Positions 1 through 5,487 of a stretch of 6,679 nucleotides of DNA are shown piece by piece. Positions within the stretch are counted from its first letter, which is position 1. The number at the start of each line of letters is the position of its first letter. The DNA is taken from the IMG/VR virus record IMGVR_UViG_3300029006_000021, positions 1 to 6,679 of that record. One strand, written 5' to 3'. The notes beneath the pieces are model-generated. The model was not told the origin of the DNA, did no database searches, and was given only the letters and a program-made list of their open reading frames with translations. The position numbers and the translations under genes were made by a program. This stretch comes from a virus. Taxonomy: Duplodnaviria; Heunggongvirae; Uroviricota; Caudoviricetes.

Positions 1-31
1 GGGCGATTAACATCGCCTTTTGCTGCTTCAT
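1..31 (-). CDS. hokD: Hok/Gef-family small membrane toxin, N-terminal 10 codons only; gene continues beyond the left edge of the window
   Basis: Minus-strand ATG at 29-31 preceded by SD-like AAGGAGA about 9 nt upstream; visible translation MKQQKAMLIA matches the N-terminus of HokD/RelF as I remember it (HokC/Gef would read MKQHKAMIVA). Only 10 residues are in the window, so the call is tentative. Confidence 0.45.
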   Translation of the reverse strand, partial: MKQQKAMLIA

Positions 32-152
32 AGCCTGCTTCTCCTTGCCTTTCGGCACGTAAGAGGCTAACCTACATGTGCAAAGCATGAAATTGGCCTC
101 AGATTAATGTTAAGCGTCTTGCCGGACGCGTAATGTTAACTGGGGCTTTTCT

Positions 153-188
153 CTGTCTGCCTTACGGTGGCATGCCCGAGGCAGACAG
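153..188. other. 10-bp inverted repeat (CTGTCTGCCT / AGGCAGACAG) with 16-nt spacer containing the palindrome GGCATGCC, in the leader upstream of the hok-like gene
   Basis: Read directly. Not followed by a U-tract on either strand, so not a typical terminator; could be part of hok-type mRNA folding or a protein-binding site. Confidence 0.35.
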
Positions 189-276
189 CCTCAAGCACCC
201 GCAGCAATTCTACTTAACTCTCGCTTTACCGCAAACCGTTTTTACCCGATATGGGAATCCCCATATCGCAATGAAA

Positions 277-2951: not shown

Positions 2952-3698
2952 TTACTTCACAACCCTCTGATTGCTGACATTTGGACGCCAGCTATCCCAG
3001 TTAAACGTCACCCATCGACCACCGTTCATGGTCATGCGGTCCATAATCCTCTCACCGAGAAGCGTACTCATTGCGGCATGATTCAGGTTTGTTAACATCC
3101 CGACACTGCACAGTGATGCTGTCCGGCGATCAATTATCTGGTGCAATACCACCTGCTCGTTTTTCGTCTCACGCTGAACGCCTATTTCATCCAGGACCAG
3201 CAAATCAACCCCGCAAAGCTCCTGTAAAAATTTTTCCCCGGACTGGCCGTTGTCGTAGCTGTCATGCAACACACTCATGACGTCAGACACGGTGACGATA
3301 ATCACGCTGCTCCCCTTCGCCATCAGCCGGTTGCCCATCGCCGCTGCAAGGTGATTTTTCCCGGTGCCGGTTTTACCGCTGAACACAAAATTCGTGCACC
3401 CGGTCATCAGTTCGTCAGCGATGGATTTTGCCTGGCTCAGCGCGTGTTTTTGCCCGTCGTTCTGCACCTGATAATTCGCAAACGAGCATTTGCTGTGCAG
3501 AGGCTGGATGCCCGAACGATTCAGGATTTTTTCCACCCGCAACTGGCGATTCTGGCGGTTAATCTCCTCGCTGCGTTTTCGTCCTTCAGCAAGCTGCCAT
3601 TCCCGCCACTCCTCCACCGTCCGGTACGGTGGAACCGCCCCCTGTGGTGCAAGTCTGCGAATACGTTCAAGAACCCCGGCTGCCGCAATGTTTTTCAT
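2952..3698 (-). CDS. ydaV: DnaC-family replicative helicase loader (AAA+ ATPase), 248 aa
   Basis: Walker A FSGKTGTGKNHLAAA and Walker B DLLVLDEIGVQ, with C-terminal ...GERIMDRM...WVTFNWDSWR closely resembling E. coli DnaC; SD GGGGGTGA upstream of ATG 3696-3698. Symbol assigned by synteny and size with the Rac prophage, not verified. Confidence 0.9.
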   Translation of the reverse strand: MKNIAAAGVLERIRRLAPQGAVPPYRTVEEWREWQLAEGRKRSEEINRQNRQLRVEKILNRSGIQPLHSKCSFANYQVQNDGQKHALSQAKSIADELMTGCTNFVFSGKTGTGKNHLAAAMGNRLMAKGSSVIIVTVSDVMSVLHDSYDNGQSGEKFLQELCGVDLLVLDEIGVQRETKNEQVVLHQIIDRRTASLCSVGMLTNLNHAAMSTLLGERIMDRMTMNGGRWVTFNWDSWRPNVSNQRVVK

Positions 3699-3704
3699 GC
3701 CACG

Positions 3705-4667
3705 TCACCCCCTGAATCCAGGCGGTATTTCAGTGTCCGGTTCAGAAATGTGATTCACGCAACGCTGCGCGGGCGAACGCCCCAGGCGGATAACCAGTTC
3801 ATCCCATTTTTCCCGGAGTTTTGCCGGACTCATGATGTTTTTTACCCAGAACGAATCCCGCTGGACACGCCCAAACATTTCACAAATTTGTCTGTGAGTT
3901 CTGCCATCCAGCATCCGCATTGTGCGCACGTCATTGGCCCATGCTGTCCAGTTGGGTTCTTTCGGTCTCGTGATCTCGCCATCATCGCTGGCCGCCTGCT
4001 CGTAAAGACTCACGATTCGTCCCCAGATCCACTGTGCGCACACCAAATCTTCCTGACTTCCCCACTGGCGTTTTTTCGCACTGAACACAACCGCGTCAGG
4101 GTGTCGGGTTAAAAAATCCTGTTCAGCCGTCTGCGGGTCCGGTTGCGAAGCGTCCGGACAAGAAGATCTTTTCTCTGACGGATCAGGTTTTAATACTGAC
4201 GGATCGGGGTCAATCATCGCCCCCCTAATCGGCAGTTTTTTATCAACCGTTGATCCATCAAAATTTGACGGGTCAACCGTTGAGGGGTCAATATTTGACG
4301 GGTCAACTGTTAACGGGTCATTTTTTGCCGGGCTAATTTTTCTTTTCGGTTTATATGACTCACGCGCCGCCGCCGCAGCTGCTTCGAGTTTTTCCACATT
4401 AAGCCGATAGATATTGCTTACATTACGCCCACCGACCTTACGCTCTTCCTTCGTCAGCCAGCCCTCTTTCGCCAGTTCTGCAATAGCCGATTTCACGGTG
4501 GATTCACTTCTTGCACCGATCTGACGCCGGATAGTTTCAATGGCAGGCCATGACACGCCCTCGTCATTGCTGTAGTCTGCTAGACGGGCCATCACTGCCA
4601 CCCGGGATAAGATCATGCCGGTGAAGGCGCATCCTTCCCAGACAAGACCATGAAGCTTGCTGCTCAT
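3705..4667 (-). CDS. ydaU: Phage replication initiator (lambda O-like role): N-terminal winged-helix domain, repeat-bearing linker (DPSNIDPSTVDPSNFDGSTVD), C-terminal domain; about 320 aa
   Basis: ORF track 3705..4682; I prefer the ATG at 4665-4667 (MSSKLHGL...) with a GGGGG SD-like run upstream, over the GTG at 4682. Sits immediately upstream of the DnaC-like gene and contains the iteron array. Symbol by synteny with Rac, not verified. Confidence 0.85.
   Translation of the reverse strand: MSSKLHGLVWEGCAFTGMILSRVAVMARLADYSNDEGVSWPAIETIRRQIGARSESTVKSAIAELAKEGWLTKEERKVGGRNVSNIYRLNVEKLEAAAAAARESYKPKRKISPAKNDPLTVDPSNIDPSTVDPSNFDGSTVDKKLPIRGAMIDPDPSVLKPDPSEKRSSCPDASQPDPQTAEQDFLTRHPDAVVFSAKKRQWGSQEDLVCAQWIWGRIVSLYEQAASDDGEITRPKEPNWTAWANDVRTMRMLDGRTHRQICEMFGRVQRDSFWVKNIMSPAKLREKWDELVIRLGRSPAQRCVNHISEPDTEIPPGFRG
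4249..4323. repeat. Iteron array: four to five direct repeats of a 15-bp unit (core GGGTCAA, approximate consensus TTGACGGGTCAAC) inside the initiator coding sequence; putative phage replication origin
   Basis: GGTCAA cores at 4271, 4286, 4301 and 4316 (GGTCAT), exactly 15 bp apart, with a degenerate copy at 4249-4263; read directly from the sequence. Lambda ori iterons likewise lie within the O gene linker. Confidence 0.75.
4324..4365. other. AT-rich tract flanking the iterons (candidate DNA-unwinding element of the origin)
   Basis: Sequence TTTTTTGCCGGGCTAATTTTTCTTTTCGGTTTATATGACTC directly adjacent to the iterons; by analogy with lambda ori. Confidence 0.45.
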
Positions 4668-4689
4668 AAAACCCCCGAACACCGTGCTT

Positions 4690-5115
4690 TTAGTGCATCA
4701 CCACAGCATTCCCTGCCGGGCCGCCGCGATTCATCTGGTCATACAAAACAACCGCTGACGCAACAAAATCGTCGACATCCTTCACCAGCCGATCCCGCCG
4801 TTCGACGATCTCACGGTAATACTCAGAACTGTGGCTGCGCATACGGGCCACCAGCAAAGGCGGCATCGCCTTTTCGATCGCTGGTAACAGAGCCTGAATT
4901 TTTTCAACAGCATCAGGGGTGTCTTTATCCAACCAACGGAAAATTTTCTGGGTATTACGGGCCAGGGCTTCCGGATGACTGTCGTCATACAGTTCCGGGA
5001 ACGTCATCCCCAGTTCGAAATAAGTCCGGGCTATTTCAGCTGCAGGAACTTTCTCGCCATCAGGATATGCCCAGGCATTGATCGCCATGCGGATGTGTTC
5101 ATGCTTGATTTTCAT
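4690..5115 (-). CDS. ydaT: YdaT-like protein, 141 aa (lambda CII-like regulator; historically annotated as a toxin)
   Basis: ORF track; ATG 5113-5115 with SD GGAG about 9 nt upstream; 17-nt overlap with the upstream ydaS-like gene; position between Cro-like and O-like genes as in Rac. Symbol by synteny and size, not verified. Confidence 0.85.
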   Translation of the reverse strand: MKIKHEHIRMAINAWAYPDGEKVPAAEIARTYFELGMTFPELYDDSHPEALARNTQKIFRWLDKDTPDAVEKIQALLPAIEKAMPPLLVARMRSHSSEYYREIVERRDRLVKDVDDFVASAVVLYDQMNRGGPAGNAVVMH

Positions 5116-5380
5116 GAATCAAGCTCCTAGAAAGTGGTTGTGTTAACGTTTTGGTATCTTCCAGCTCAGGCCAAATATTCATCCAATCAAAAGGCCTTAG
5201 TTGCTGACGTGTAACTTCACCATTACTGGCTCGCTCAATAAGGACACATAACGATGCCCCTAACACTTGACCTTTACTCAATGCCTTTCTTAGATAACCG
5301 ATGCTGGTACCACACTCGCATGCAAACATACGCTGTTCATCTGACGAAAGAGAATTGAGAAATATTCTTAATTCTTCCAT
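5099..5380 (-). CDS. ydaS: YdaS-like Cro-type HTH regulator, 93 aa
   Basis: ORF track; ATG 5378-5380 with SD AAGGAG 5 nt upstream; HTH-like segment CGTSIGYLRKALSKGQ; first gene of the operon divergent from the repressor gene. Symbol by synteny, not verified. Confidence 0.85.
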   Translation of the reverse strand: MEELRIFLNSLSSDEQRMFACECGTSIGYLRKALSKGQVLGASLCVLIERASNGEVTRQQLRPFDWMNIWPELEDTKTLTQPLSRSLIHENQA

Positions 5381-5405
5381 AGCTACTCCTTAGTAAACAC
5401 AGCAA

Positions 5406-5433
5406 AGAATACCTATAGGTAAACAAAAGTCAA
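5406..5433 (-). promoter_or_regulatory. PR-like sigma70 promoter for the ydaS operon: -35 TTGACT (5428-5433), 16-bp spacer, -10 TATTCT (5406-5411), read on the minus strand
   Basis: Hexamers read directly; the -10 overlaps the perfect palindrome at 5410-5421; predicted transcript start sits about 20 nt upstream of the ydaS SD. Confidence 0.55.
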
Positions 5434-5487
5434 TACCTTTGGGTTGTTTACCTTACGGTAATCACATCTATTATTTACCTATGGACA
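5410..5487. promoter_or_regulatory. Operator cluster: four TACC-N4-GGTA-type palindromes (5410-5421 TACCTATAGGTA, perfect; 5434-5445 TACCTTTGGGTT; 5450-5461 TACCTTACGGTA; 5476-5487 TACCTATGGACA); candidate repressor binding sites
   Basis: Read directly; they sit between divergent repressor and Cro-like genes and overlap the predicted promoter hexamers, an arrangement like lambda OR1-OR3. Confidence 0.55.
5447..5474 (+). promoter_or_regulatory. PRM-like promoter for the repressor gene: -35 TTTACC (5447-5452), 16-bp spacer, -10 TATTAT (5469-5474); predicted start at or near the ATG at 5481 (leaderless mRNA)
   Basis: Hexamers read directly; there is no SD upstream of ATG 5481. Lambda cI is transcribed as a leaderless mRNA from PRM, which is the precedent. 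Confidence 0.4.

What the first reader, a model, noticed from the sequence alone, without database searches (positions are those of the whole stretch)
4160..4365. Replication origin embedded in the initiator gene: 15-bp iterons, AT-rich tract and a GATC cluster
Four phased 15-bp repeats (core GGGTCAA) plus a degenerate fifth lie inside the coding sequence, producing a DPS/DGS pentapeptide-repeat linker in the protein. An AT-rich tract follows, and four GATC sites (4165, 4181, 4202, 4252) fall within about 90 bp alongside a repeated TGACGGATC motif. This is the signature of a lambda-type ori within the O gene; the GATC density hints at Dam/SeqA-sensitive control, which is not a recognised feature of lambda ori.
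Basis: partly seen in the sequence, partly recalled or inferred. Interest (0 to 1): 0.5.

Follow-up and report, generated by a model that had tools for sequence, protein, structure and literature searches.

The report
Prophage replication origin with conserved GATC sites
This stretch is most likely the replication origin of a lambda-like E. coli prophage, built into the middle of its own initiator gene; it is ordinary in kind, but two Dam methylation sites (GATC) are frozen in every relative examined, which phage lambda's origin lacks.

Summary
On the minus strand, window 3705-4667 encodes an O-like initiator, with a DnaC-like helicase loader gene after it.

- **Repeats.** The linker after the initiator's winged-helix domain holds six 15-bp-phased units, four good and two degenerate. 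Their core is the palindrome TGACnnGTCA. No shuffle of the window comes near this array.
- **GATC boxes.** Downstream of the units lie two iteron-like boxes, (C)TGATCCGTCAG, then a third GATC and a GC-rich block.
- **Relatives.** 85 non-redundant relatives from Enterobacterales share this layout.
- **Selection on the DNA.** Synonymous sites are saturated in the DNA-binding domain but frozen in the iterons and boxes. An Asp codon followed by C reads GAC in 134 of 135 cases in the iteron arrays and GAT in 168 of 178 in the boxes. GATC is therefore excluded from the iterons and fixed in the boxes.
- **Melting.** Across the family, the boxes are the most easily melted part of the gene.

The "lambda-type origin inside the initiator gene" reading is supported by anatomy, not by experiment. 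The Dam/SeqA idea gains comparative support but stays untested. The window's GATC cluster is not significant on its own. Only two of its four sites are family-invariant.

The parts
3705..4667 (-). O-like replication initiator gene, 320 aa from the ATG at 4667. An upstream in-frame GTG at 4682 is listed by the ORF tool.
   Evidence: ORF list. Full-length match to PHROG 391 'replication initiation O-like', E 1e-115. Annotated from the ATG in the 98.8%-identical E. coli copy.
4374..4667 (-). Coding region of the N-terminal winged-helix DNA-binding domain (aa 1-98).
   Evidence: Pfam HTH_36 over aa 30-76, E 2e-6, with a weak DnaD_N match. No Phage_rep_O match, unlike lambda O.
4333..4362 (-). A-rich tract upstream of the iterons in gene orientation, encoding YKPKRKIS. 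It holds the least stable duplex in this gene but is not conserved in the wider family.
   Evidence: GC 0.325. Nearest-neighbour stability: -26.4 kcal per 25 bp, top 0.6% of the window. Family profile.
4250..4336 (-). Iteron array of six 15-bp-phased units: a 12-mer TTGACCCGTCAA plus a 3-nt spacer. Starts at 4325, 4310, 4295, 4280, 4265 and 4250. The core palindrome is TGACnnGTCA, and the alternating spacers give a 30-bp super-period.
   Evidence: The family-wide core TGAYNNRTCA occurs at 7.3/kb in the linkers against 0.10/kb elsewhere in the genes. The Ser codon is TCA in 74/74 and 77/78 sequences.
4208..4249 (-). Spacer between the array and the boxes. It contains TTGATAAAAAAC and a half-unit, TTGACCCC.
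   Evidence: Sequence read. Family consensus gcAAAAAa...TTTcACCCGcCAGAATCTGG.
4196..4207 (-). GATC box 1, CCGATCCGTCAG, an iteron-like core with T in place of C. Its GATC is at 4202-4205. Invariant in the family.
   Evidence: Asp codon GAT in 85/85, Pro CCG in 78/85, Ser TCA in 68/68, Val GTA in 75/77. GAT-before-C in 168/178 cases in the boxes against 1/135 in the arrays.
4175..4186 (-). GATC box 2, CTGATCCGTCAG. Its GATC is at 4181-4184. Invariant in the family.
   Evidence: Asp codon GAT in 77/77 and Ser TCA in 70/70. 73 of 85 genes have two boxes. Spacing is 24 bp in 68, 18 in 6, 12 in 2, and 21 here.
4160..4174 (-). AGAAAAGATCTTCTT, the A-rich end of the easily melted segment, with the third GATC at 4165-4168.
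   Evidence: GATC position. In one search the motif AGATCT[T/C]CTTGTC is visible in WIN, L010, L013, L015 and L016, while the other printed relatives read AAAAAACCTTCTTGTC. One search lists a GATC at the same offset in L011, L012 and L014. Family stability profile z about +2 over the box segment.
4130..4159 (-). GC-rich block after the boxes, with GTCCGG repeated at 4137 and 4152 and the palindrome GTCCGGAC at 4152-4159.
   Evidence: Sequence read. Family consensus TTGTCcGG..GCTgCGCAACCnGAC and a stability dip of z -1.2. The Asp codon here is GAC in 71/72.
2952..3698 (-). DnaC-like helicase loader gene immediately downstream of the initiator gene.
   Evidence: NCBIfam PRK12377 at 507 bits and DnaC equivalog E 1e-89. 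Pfam IstB_IS21. PHROG 50.
5406..5433 (-). pR-like promoter (TTGACT, 16 nt, TATTCT). Its transcription would run through cro-like (5380-5099), cII/YdaT-like (5115-4690) and the origin.
   Evidence: Promoter scan, the only hit in 3650-5450. Pfam YdaS and YdaT matches.

Best explanation
Window 4130-4362 is the vegetative (theta) replication origin of a lambdoid E. coli prophage. It lies inside the linker-coding part of the prophage's own O-like initiator gene.

**Inferred mechanism**
1. Dimers of the initiator's N-terminal winged-helix domain bind the six TGACnnGTCA palindromes, which are spaced 15 bp apart.
2. The resulting nucleoprotein complex destabilises the adjacent A+T-rich segment at 4160-4207. 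That segment carries two invariant iteron-like GATC boxes and is bounded by a GC-rich block.
3. The lambda-O-like C-terminal domain brings in host DnaB through the DnaC-like loader encoded next door.
4. Transcription from the pR-like promoter crosses the origin, as it does in lambda.

**The GATC boxes.** They are a cis-acting DNA element under selection in their own right. The most likely reading is that their Dam methylation state matters. Methylation may ease melting. Alternatively, hemimethylated boxes may bind SeqA after firing and delay re-initiation, as at oriC and the P1 plasmid origin.

**Shown versus inferred.** Shown here: the anatomy, its conservation, and DNA-level selection. Inferred: initiator binding, the site of unwinding, loader recruitment, and any role of methylation.
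For: **The repeat array is real.**; 0 of 300 shuffles approach its score.

**Gene context.** PHROG 391 O-like initiator. HTH_36 N-terminal domain. C-terminal domain 39% identical to lambda O, E 3e-26. DnaC-like loader downstream. cro/cII-like genes and a pR-like promoter upstream.

**Family layout.** 85 non-redundant relatives were retrieved through N-terminal peptide patterns only. All carry 15-bp repeats directly after the winged-helix domain, with copy number from 3 to 8.

**The core motif is confined to the linker.** TGAYNNRTCA is 73-fold enriched in the linkers, and 15 bp is the dominant spacing.

**Half-site variants are symmetric.** Units read TGAC..GTCA, or TGAA..TTCA in some relatives, as expected for a dimer site.

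**Selection on the DNA itself.** The mean major-codon fraction at conserved residues is 0.51 in the N-terminal domain. It is 0.91 in the iteron zone and 0.90 in the box zone (Mann-Whitney p 6e-5 and 3e-7). Individual box codons are 92-100% fixed.

**GATC is placed, not scattered.** GAC-C is 134 against GAT-C 1 in the arrays. GAT-C is 168 against GAC-C 10 in the boxes. The rest of the gene shows 131 against 102. GATC density is 9.0/kb in the linker, 2.7/kb elsewhere and 0.49/kb in the arrays.

**The box segment melts most easily.** It is on average the least stable duplex in the gene (z about +2). In 46 of 85 genes the single least stable 25-mer falls in or next to the box segment (the 0 and +25 bins). 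A GC-rich block follows.

**Precedents.** Iterons inside O/gene-18-type genes are an accepted inference for lambda, P22 and phage L (PMC8022706; PMC7466680). Origin methylation is essential for P1 and ColV-K30, whose iterons lack GATC (PMC2865523). The P1 oriR layout was read directly.
Against: - No experiment exists. Origin activity, initiator binding and the unwinding site are all inferred.
- In this window the least stable duplex is the A-rich tract on the other side of the array (4333-4357). The box segment is only about the 8th percentile of the window. The site of opening in this particular phage is therefore uncertain.
- The window's GATC cluster is not significant alone.
- Box spacing varies (24, 21, 18 and 12 bp). 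It is set by the reading frame and shows no fixed helical phase, which a strict SeqA pair would favour (PMC2691817).
- T in place of C in the boxes could serve some other binding protein, with GATC incidental.
- This window carries no methylase gene.
Confidence: 0.8

Rival explanations
1. The origin reading is right, but the two boxes are binding sites for a protein and the GATC is incidental to Dam. The protein could be a second, lower-affinity class of initiator site. It could also be a host factor conserved across Enterobacterales, for example low-affinity DnaA-ATP sites of the GATC-containing kind found in oriC.
For: - The boxes match the iteron core at 8-9 of 12 positions.
- They stay constant in relatives whose iterons have switched to TGAA..TTCA and whose recognition helix differs. 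That points to a conserved partner.
- Box spacing is not helically phased.
Against: - The one position that separates boxes from iterons is exactly the one that creates GATC, and it does so in 168 of 178 cases.
- No DnaA box above chance lies near the origin.
- Resemblance to the oriC I-sites rests on my memory of those sequences and was not tested.
Confidence: 0.3
2. The frozen box is a conserved junction sequence that promotes homologous recombination between initiator modules. On this reading it marks a mosaic boundary of lambdoid phages and has no role in the origin.
For: The box lies where N-terminal plus iteron modules join at least three different C-terminal domain types: lambda-O-like, Phg_2220_C, and others. 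DNA searches show that the C-terminal half recombines independently of the N-terminal half.
Against: - The conserved segment is short, about 45 bp.
- It coincides with the minimum of duplex stability and is followed by a GC-rich block.
- It keeps specific bases rather than overall identity.
- The iterons next to it show the same codon freezing, which a recombination linker does not explain.
Confidence: 0.08
3. The repeats are only a flexible pentapeptide-repeat protein linker, and the DNA has no function of its own. The origin lies elsewhere in the prophage.
For: The repeats are in frame, and low-complexity Asp/Pro/Ser linkers are common. The window alone cannot exclude this.
Against: - Ser is encoded by TCA in 74/74 and 77/78 sequences at two iteron columns, although six codons are available. 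The N-terminal domain uses all six at conserved Ser residues.
- The peptide repeats differ between subfamilies (SDxSK, DPSNI/DPSTV, SEPSK) while the DNA core TGAYNNRTCA persists.
- The units are palindromic, which a peptide repeat does not require.
Confidence: 0.04

Closest known systems
Phage lambda ori (four iterons plus an AT-rich tract inside gene O) and its Stx-phage variants with six iterons
   Same: - The origin lies in the middle of the initiator gene, between an N-terminal DNA-binding domain and a C-terminal domain.
- The repeats have dyad symmetry.
- An easily melted tract lies distal to the repeats.
- The C-terminal domain is homologous: 39% identity, E 3e-26.
- The operon runs from a pR-like promoter through cro and cII homologues.
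- Iteron number varies among relatives, as between lambda and 933W/P27 (PMC7466680).
   Different: - The N-terminal domain is HTH_36, not Phage_rep_O.
- Units have a 10-12 bp core at a strict 15-bp period. Lambda's are 18-bp units at 20-24 bp.
- The loader is DnaC-like, not P.
- Lambda's iterons and AT tract contain no GATC. Here two are invariant.
P1 plasmid origin oriR core (also the oriC 13-mer region)
   Same: - Short GATC(C)-containing repeats lie in an A+T-rich segment next to a GC-rich stretch and an iteron array whose iterons themselves lack GATC.
- P1 replication requires methylated origin DNA (PMC2865523).
- P1 carries its own Dam. Likewise, 28 of 76 relatives here have an adenine methylase gene right after the initiator gene.
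   Different: - P1 has five GATC sites and two DnaA boxes, and its origin is intergenic. Its order is DnaA boxes, GATC heptamers, GC stretch, iterons.
- Here there are two or three GATC, no DnaA box above chance, everything is coding, and the GC block lies beyond the boxes.
- P1 RepA binds as a monomer (PMC5043065). The palindromic units here imply dimers.
Putative origins in P22 gene 18 and phage L gene 18
   Same: Distantly related O-type initiators, each with its own iterons inside the coding region. The origin is inferred from repeats, as here (PMC8022706).
   Different: The repeats differ: four of about 20 bp in P22, and six 11-bp TGTCCAACGGA in L. The partner is a DnaB-type helicase (gene 12). 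No Dam-site element is reported.
Vibrio cholerae chromosome 2 origin (RctB 11- and 12-mers)
   Same: Initiator-type repeats that contain GATC, with methylation governing initiator binding (PMC2865523). This is a model for how the iteron-like GATC boxes could work.
   Different: In V. cholerae every iteron carries GATC. Here GATC is excluded from the main array and confined to two special sites. The initiators are unrelated.

Membership tests
Lambdoid origin embedded in the initiator gene (lambda ori type) | Tandem initiator-type repeats inside the initiator gene, between its two domains | tested here: met
   Six 15-bp-phased units at 4250-4336 lie between the HTH_36 domain (aa 30-76) and the lambda-O-like C-terminal domain (aa 182-300). 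All 85 relatives have repeats at the same place.
Lambdoid origin embedded in the initiator gene (lambda ori type) | Repeats with dyad symmetry, constrained as DNA rather than only as protein | tested here: met
   The core is the palindrome TGACnnGTCA, with symmetric variants. The Ser codon TCA is fixed. Major-codon fraction is 0.91 against 0.51 in the N-terminal domain.
Lambdoid origin embedded in the initiator gene (lambda ori type) | A+T-rich unwinding tract next to the iterons on the side distal to the promoter | tested here: inconclusive
   Met for the family: the box segment has z about +2 and holds the least stable 25-mer in 46 of 85 genes. In this window the least stable tract is on the promoter-proximal side (4333-4357), and the box segment is only about the 8th percentile.
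Lambdoid origin embedded in the initiator gene (lambda ori type) | Initiator N-terminal domain of the lambda O family (Pfam Phage_rep_O) | tested here: not met
   The window protein matches HTH_36 and weakly DnaD_N, not PF04492. Lambda O matches PF04492 at E 6e-36. BLASTP aligns only the C-terminal domains.
Lambdoid origin embedded in the initiator gene (lambda ori type) | Initiator C-terminal domain homologous to that of lambda O | tested here: met
   39% identity over 119 residues, E 3e-26.
Lambdoid origin embedded in the initiator gene (lambda ori type) | Lambda P-type helicase loader encoded downstream | tested here: not met
   The downstream gene is DnaC/IstB-like. Eight of 76 relatives do carry a Phage_lambda_P gene there.
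Lambdoid origin embedded in the initiator gene (lambda ori type) | The fragment supports initiator-dependent replication, and the initiator binds the repeats | not testable with these tools
   This needs a plasmid origin assay and footprinting.
Dam/SeqA-responsive origin (oriC, P1 oriR) | Several GATC sites concentrated in or beside the unwinding element | tested here: met
   GATC at 4202, 4181 and 4165 lie within 41 bp of the box segment. Family density is 9.0/kb in the linker against 2.7/kb elsewhere. The window's cluster alone is not significant.
Dam/SeqA-responsive origin (oriC, P1 oriR) | GATC maintained by selection beyond what the coding sequence needs | tested here: met
   Asp is GAT in 85/85 and 77/77 at the two boxes. 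GAT-C is 168/178 in the boxes, 1/135 in the arrays and 102/233 elsewhere.
Dam/SeqA-responsive origin (oriC, P1 oriR) | GATC pairs spaced so that they lie on one face of the helix, the SeqA preference | tested here: inconclusive
   Start-to-start spacing is 24 bp in 68 genes, 18 in 6, 12 in 2 and 21 in the window. These are multiples of 3 with no single helical phase. SeqA prefers same-face pairs but tolerates several spacings (PMC2691817).
Dam/SeqA-responsive origin (oriC, P1 oriR) | DnaA boxes in the origin | tested here: not met
   Only TTTTCCACA at 4390-4398 lies near the origin. The window has 4 matches against 5.5 expected.
Dam/SeqA-responsive origin (oriC, P1 oriR) | Methylation needed for firing, or SeqA binding to the hemimethylated origin | not testable with these tools
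   This needs dam and seqA hosts, SeqA gel shifts or ChIP, and synonymous GATC knock-outs.

The most novel reading that the evidence does not exclude
A large family of lambdoid prophage origins in Enterobacterales carries a conserved 'origin core' of two Dam sites set in iteron-like boxes within the unwinding element. On this reading, firing of these phage origins is gated by methylation state. Full methylation would be needed for opening or for initiator binding. Hemimethylation with SeqA binding would impose a refractory period after each round. This would be a P1/oriC-style control grafted onto a lambda-style origin. It could bear on how such phages limit early theta rounds, or stay silent as prophages. 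It could also explain why many relatives place an adenine methylase gene directly after the initiator gene.
Probability: 0.4. Interest if true: 0.6.

Novelty: new variant of a known kind. Interest (0 to 1): 0.45.

Why it matters
This replication module occurs at 95-99% identity in more than 1300 complete E. coli genomes, O157:H7 and ST131 strains among them. Its relatives are spread through Enterobacterales prophages. Yet its origin is not annotated and, in the literature I could search, not described.

The present work defines the iteron core and a conserved GATC-bearing core. That gives a concrete, cheap test of whether Dam and SeqA control lambdoid phage replication at the origin itself, because synonymous GAT-to-GAC changes remove the sites without touching the protein. 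In lambda, SeqA has been linked only to the pR promoter.

The analysis also supplies a DNA signature, TGAYNNRTCA at 15-bp phasing followed by GATCCGTCA boxes, for annotating these origins in prophages.

Tried and rejected
- **GATC cluster as stand-alone evidence.** Rejected. Four sites in 92 bp arise in 5.8% of shuffles, and the window as a whole is not enriched.
- **DnaA boxes.** One relaxed match at 4390-4398, below chance expectation.
- **Internal promoter or terminator in the origin.** None found.
- **Known RNA family.** Only sok at 26-200, none in the origin.
- **Solved structures by sequence.** Only a weak match of the C-terminal tail to DnaT; nothing for the DNA-binding domain.
- **Other reading frames.** No other ORF of 40 aa or more in any frame covers 4113-4649, which includes the whole origin. 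The codon freezing is therefore not due to an overlapping gene.
- **Helical phasing of the boxes as a SeqA signature.** Spacing is variable, so this was uninformative.
- **Covariation of recognition helix and iteron.** Relatives with STVIT in the helix have TGAA..TTCA or TGGA..T[T/C]CA units. Some relatives with STVRT also have TGAA..TTCA units. This is suggestive only.
- **More distant HTH_36 initiators (Min27, ST64B, Vibrio Va_PF430-3, Pseudomonas LESphi3).** Min27 and LESphi3 have clear tandem repeats after the domain, and ST64B and the Vibrio phage only short ones. None has the GATCCGTCA boxes, so the boxes are specific to this family.
- **Literature.** Six searches found no description of this origin family or of Dam sites in a lambdoid origin. 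The library lacks most subscription journals, so absence is weak evidence.
- **Not run.** Structure prediction and the large protein-database searches were not run, because they would not change the verdict.
Full report
**Setting.** The window is the early-right region of a lambdoid prophage, read on the minus strand. In order it holds:
- a pR-like promoter (5433 to 5406);
- a cro/YdaS-like gene (5380-5099) and a cII/YdaT-like gene (5115-4690);
- a 320-aa O-like initiator gene (4667-3705);
- a DnaC-like helicase loader gene (3698-2952).

The initiator matches PHROG 391 'replication initiation O-like' over its full length (E 1e-115). Its N-terminal part is a winged helix of Pfam HTH_36. Its C-terminal domain (aa 182-300) is 39% identical to that of lambda O (E 3e-26). 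The same module occurs at 95-99% identity in more than 1300 complete E. coli genomes, with a best match of 98.8%. It is annotated there only as 'helix-turn-helix domain-containing protein'.

**The observation.**
- Tandem Repeats Finder finds a 15-bp period (5.2 copies, 4264-4341) and a stronger 30-bp period (84% matches, score up to 101). No dinucleotide shuffle of the window exceeds a score of 59.
- On the gene strand the unit is the 12-mer TTGACCCGTCAA plus three variable bases. Copies start at 4325, 4310, 4295, 4280 and 4265, and a sixth variant starts at 4250.
- The unit core TGACnnGTCA is a palindrome. Alternating spacers (AATAT/AATTT and ACGGT) produce the 30-bp super-period.
- The repeats encode DPLTV-DPSNI-DPSTV-DPSNF-DGSTV.

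The GATC cluster is not significant on its own. The window holds 20 GATC against 23.8 expected, and 4 sites in 92 bp occurs in 115 of 2000 shuffles.

**Relatives.** I collected relatives using the N-terminal domain only, so the search could not favour any linker feature. A tblastn search of phage records and a scan of one genome per bacterial species gave 85 non-redundant genes. Nearly all are from Enterobacterales, with 52-78% identity in the N-terminal domain.
- Every one has pentapeptide, that is 15-bp, repeats directly after the winged helix. Copy number runs from 3 to 8, with expansions even between close relatives such as L013 and L014.
- The peptide repeats differ between subfamilies (SDxSK, DPSNI/DPSTV, SEPSK), but the DNA core persists. 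TGAYNNRTCA occurs at 7.3 per kb in the linkers against 0.10 per kb in the rest of the genes, mostly at 15-bp spacing.
- The commonest unit is the symmetric TGAC..GTCA. Some relatives use the symmetric variant TGAA..TTCA. This is what a dimer-binding palindrome predicts.

**Selection acts on the DNA.** At residues conserved in the N-terminal domain, synonymous codons are saturated. Asp31 is GAC 45 against GAT 40, and conserved Ser residues use all six codons. The mean major-codon fraction there is 0.51. In the iteron and box zones the fraction is 0.91 and 0.90 (p 6e-5 and 3e-7).

Downstream of the array, nearly every relative has the same sequence: GATCCGTCAGTAAAtTCAAAacatGATCCATCAGAtAAAAAaCC, followed by a GC-rich block, TTGTCcGG..GCTgCGCAACCnGAC. 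Codons in it are almost fixed:
- Asp GAT in 85/85 and 77/77
- Ser TCA in 68/68, 68/68 and 70/70
- Val GTA in 75/77
- Pro CCG in 78/85

No other ORF of 40 aa or more in any frame covers 4113-4649, and no RNA family matches there.

**The GATC question.** The two boxes are iteron-like cores in which one base differs, TGATCC[G/A]TCA instead of TGACnnGTCA. That base creates the GATC. I counted Asp codons followed by C:
- iteron arrays: GAC 134, GAT 1
- boxes: GAT 168, GAC 10
- rest of the gene: GAC 131, GAT 102

GATC is thus avoided in the arrays (0.49 per kb) and fixed in the boxes.

For the window's four sites:
- 4202 and 4181 are the invariant boxes.
- 4165 is shared only with the nearest subfamily from Erwinia, Mixta, Edwardsiella and Morganella. 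The motif is visible in L010, L013, L015 and L016. A GATC at the same offset is listed for L011, L012 and L014.
- 4252 is sporadic, found only here and in L016.

The boxes remain unchanged in relatives whose iterons and recognition helix have changed. Whatever reads them is therefore common to the family or to the hosts. Lambda's iterons and AT tract contain no GATC.

**Where the duplex would open.** Averaged over the family, the box segment is the least stable part of the gene (z about +2). In 46 of 85 genes the single least stable 25-mer falls in or next to it. A stable GC-rich block follows immediately. This is the lambda order: iterons, then an easily melted tract, then a GC-rich end.

In this window the picture is less clean. 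The least stable 25-mer is the A-rich tract at 4333-4357, on the promoter-proximal side of the array. The box segment ranks only about the 8th percentile of the window. The A-rich tract is not conserved outside the nearest subfamily, so I treat the box segment as the likelier unwinding element, with reduced confidence for this phage.

**Mechanism.** The best-supported model follows lambda.
1. Initiator dimers occupy the palindromic iterons.
2. The complex destabilises the neighbouring box segment.
3. The lambda-O-like C-terminal domain recruits DnaB through the DnaC-like loader.
4. Transcription from pR crosses the origin.

None of these steps is shown here. They follow from the anatomy and from what is established for lambda (PMC7466680; PMC5043065).

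For the boxes I favour a methylation-dependent role. The arrangement matches the P1 plasmid origin core, which I read directly: five GATCC-type heptamers and a GC-rich stretch beside iterons that themselves lack GATC. Origin methylation is essential for P1 and ColV-K30 (PMC2865523). In Vibrio cholerae chromosome 2, GATC inside the initiator sites makes initiator binding depend on methylation (same paper). In 28 of 76 relatives the gene immediately after the initiator gene is an N6-adenine methyltransferase. I ran no control set, so this is only suggestive.

Against a strict SeqA-pair model, box spacing varies between 24, 21, 18 and 12 bp. The main rival is that the boxes bind a protein and the GATC is incidental.

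**Comparison and novelty.** Inferring iterons inside O/gene-18-type genes is routine for lambdoid phages (PMC8022706), so the kind is known. This origin differs from lambda's in four ways:
- a different DNA-binding domain family;
- a short palindromic core at a strict 15-bp period;
- a DnaC-like loader;
- the invariant Dam-site core.

Six literature searches found no description of this family or of Dam sites in a lambdoid origin. The library omits most subscription journals, so that absence is weak evidence. I rate it a new variant of a known kind and of moderate interest. A specialist would not be surprised by the origin. The GAC/GAT dichotomy is new, and it can be tested with synonymous mutations.

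Noticed in passing
window 26-200, minus strand: A full-length match to the sok antitoxin RNA (Rfam RF01794, 117 bits against a gathering score of 59). This indicates a hok/sok-type toxin-antitoxin locus at this end of the prophage region. The related E. coli locus L002 annotates hokD nearby.
   Followed up: no
L001 4500-4680 (E. coli K-12 Rac prophage, ydaU): YdaU has an unrelated N-terminal domain (DUF1376), but its linker shows the same layout. GTTCAAACA-type repeats come first. An AT-rich stretch follows, AATAAAGATACAGATAAAGATCTAAAAACAGATCC, with two GATC 12 bp apart. A GC-rich block, CCCCCCCTAAATCCCCCCCGGGGG, comes last. A GATC pair in the easily melted part may be a wider theme in enterobacterial prophage origins. 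This may be the Rac origin.
   Followed up: partly
window 3705-3767 (initiator aa 300-320), and the C-termini of YdaU (L001), Sb42 (L092), SfII gp41 (L005), L003 and L008: The extreme C-terminal tail, ...IPPGFRG, is shared by initiators with different C-terminal domains. It weakly matches the C-terminus of the host primosomal protein DnaT (E about 0.01 in NCBIfam and PDB searches). It may be a short docking peptide. This probably explains the 'primosomal protein I' annotations.
   Followed up: partly
L010-L089, the gene immediately downstream of the initiator gene: Across 76 relatives the next gene varies: Pfam Dam in 20, MT-A70 in 5, D12 adenine methylase in 3, PerC in 14, lambda P in 8, C5 methylase in 3, and DnaC/IstB-like in only 2 relatives plus the window. 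Most family members therefore lack an adjacent helicase loader, and many have an adenine methylase instead. No control set was examined.
   Followed up: partly
L007, L008, L084, L088, L089 (iteron arrays): Some relatives use the symmetric half-site variant TGAA..TTCA instead of TGAC..GTCA. L084 and L089 have it together with Ile in place of Arg in the putative recognition helix (STVIT against STVRT). L008, which also has STVIT, uses TGGA..T[T/C]CA units. L007 and L088 have TGAA..TTCA with STVRT, so the covariation is imperfect.
   Followed up: partly
window 4390-4398, plus strand: TTTTCCACA fits the relaxed DnaA-box consensus TTWTNCACA and lies about 55 bp from the iteron array. It is within chance expectation for the window and is not conserved in relatives.
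   Followed up: yes
window 3712-4172 compared with 4173-4667: Only the C-terminal half of the initiator gene matches other phages (mEp460, HannyBb, PhiR42_1) at 87% DNA identity. The N-terminal half and the iterons do not. This marks a mosaic junction at or just after the GATC boxes.
   Followed up: partly
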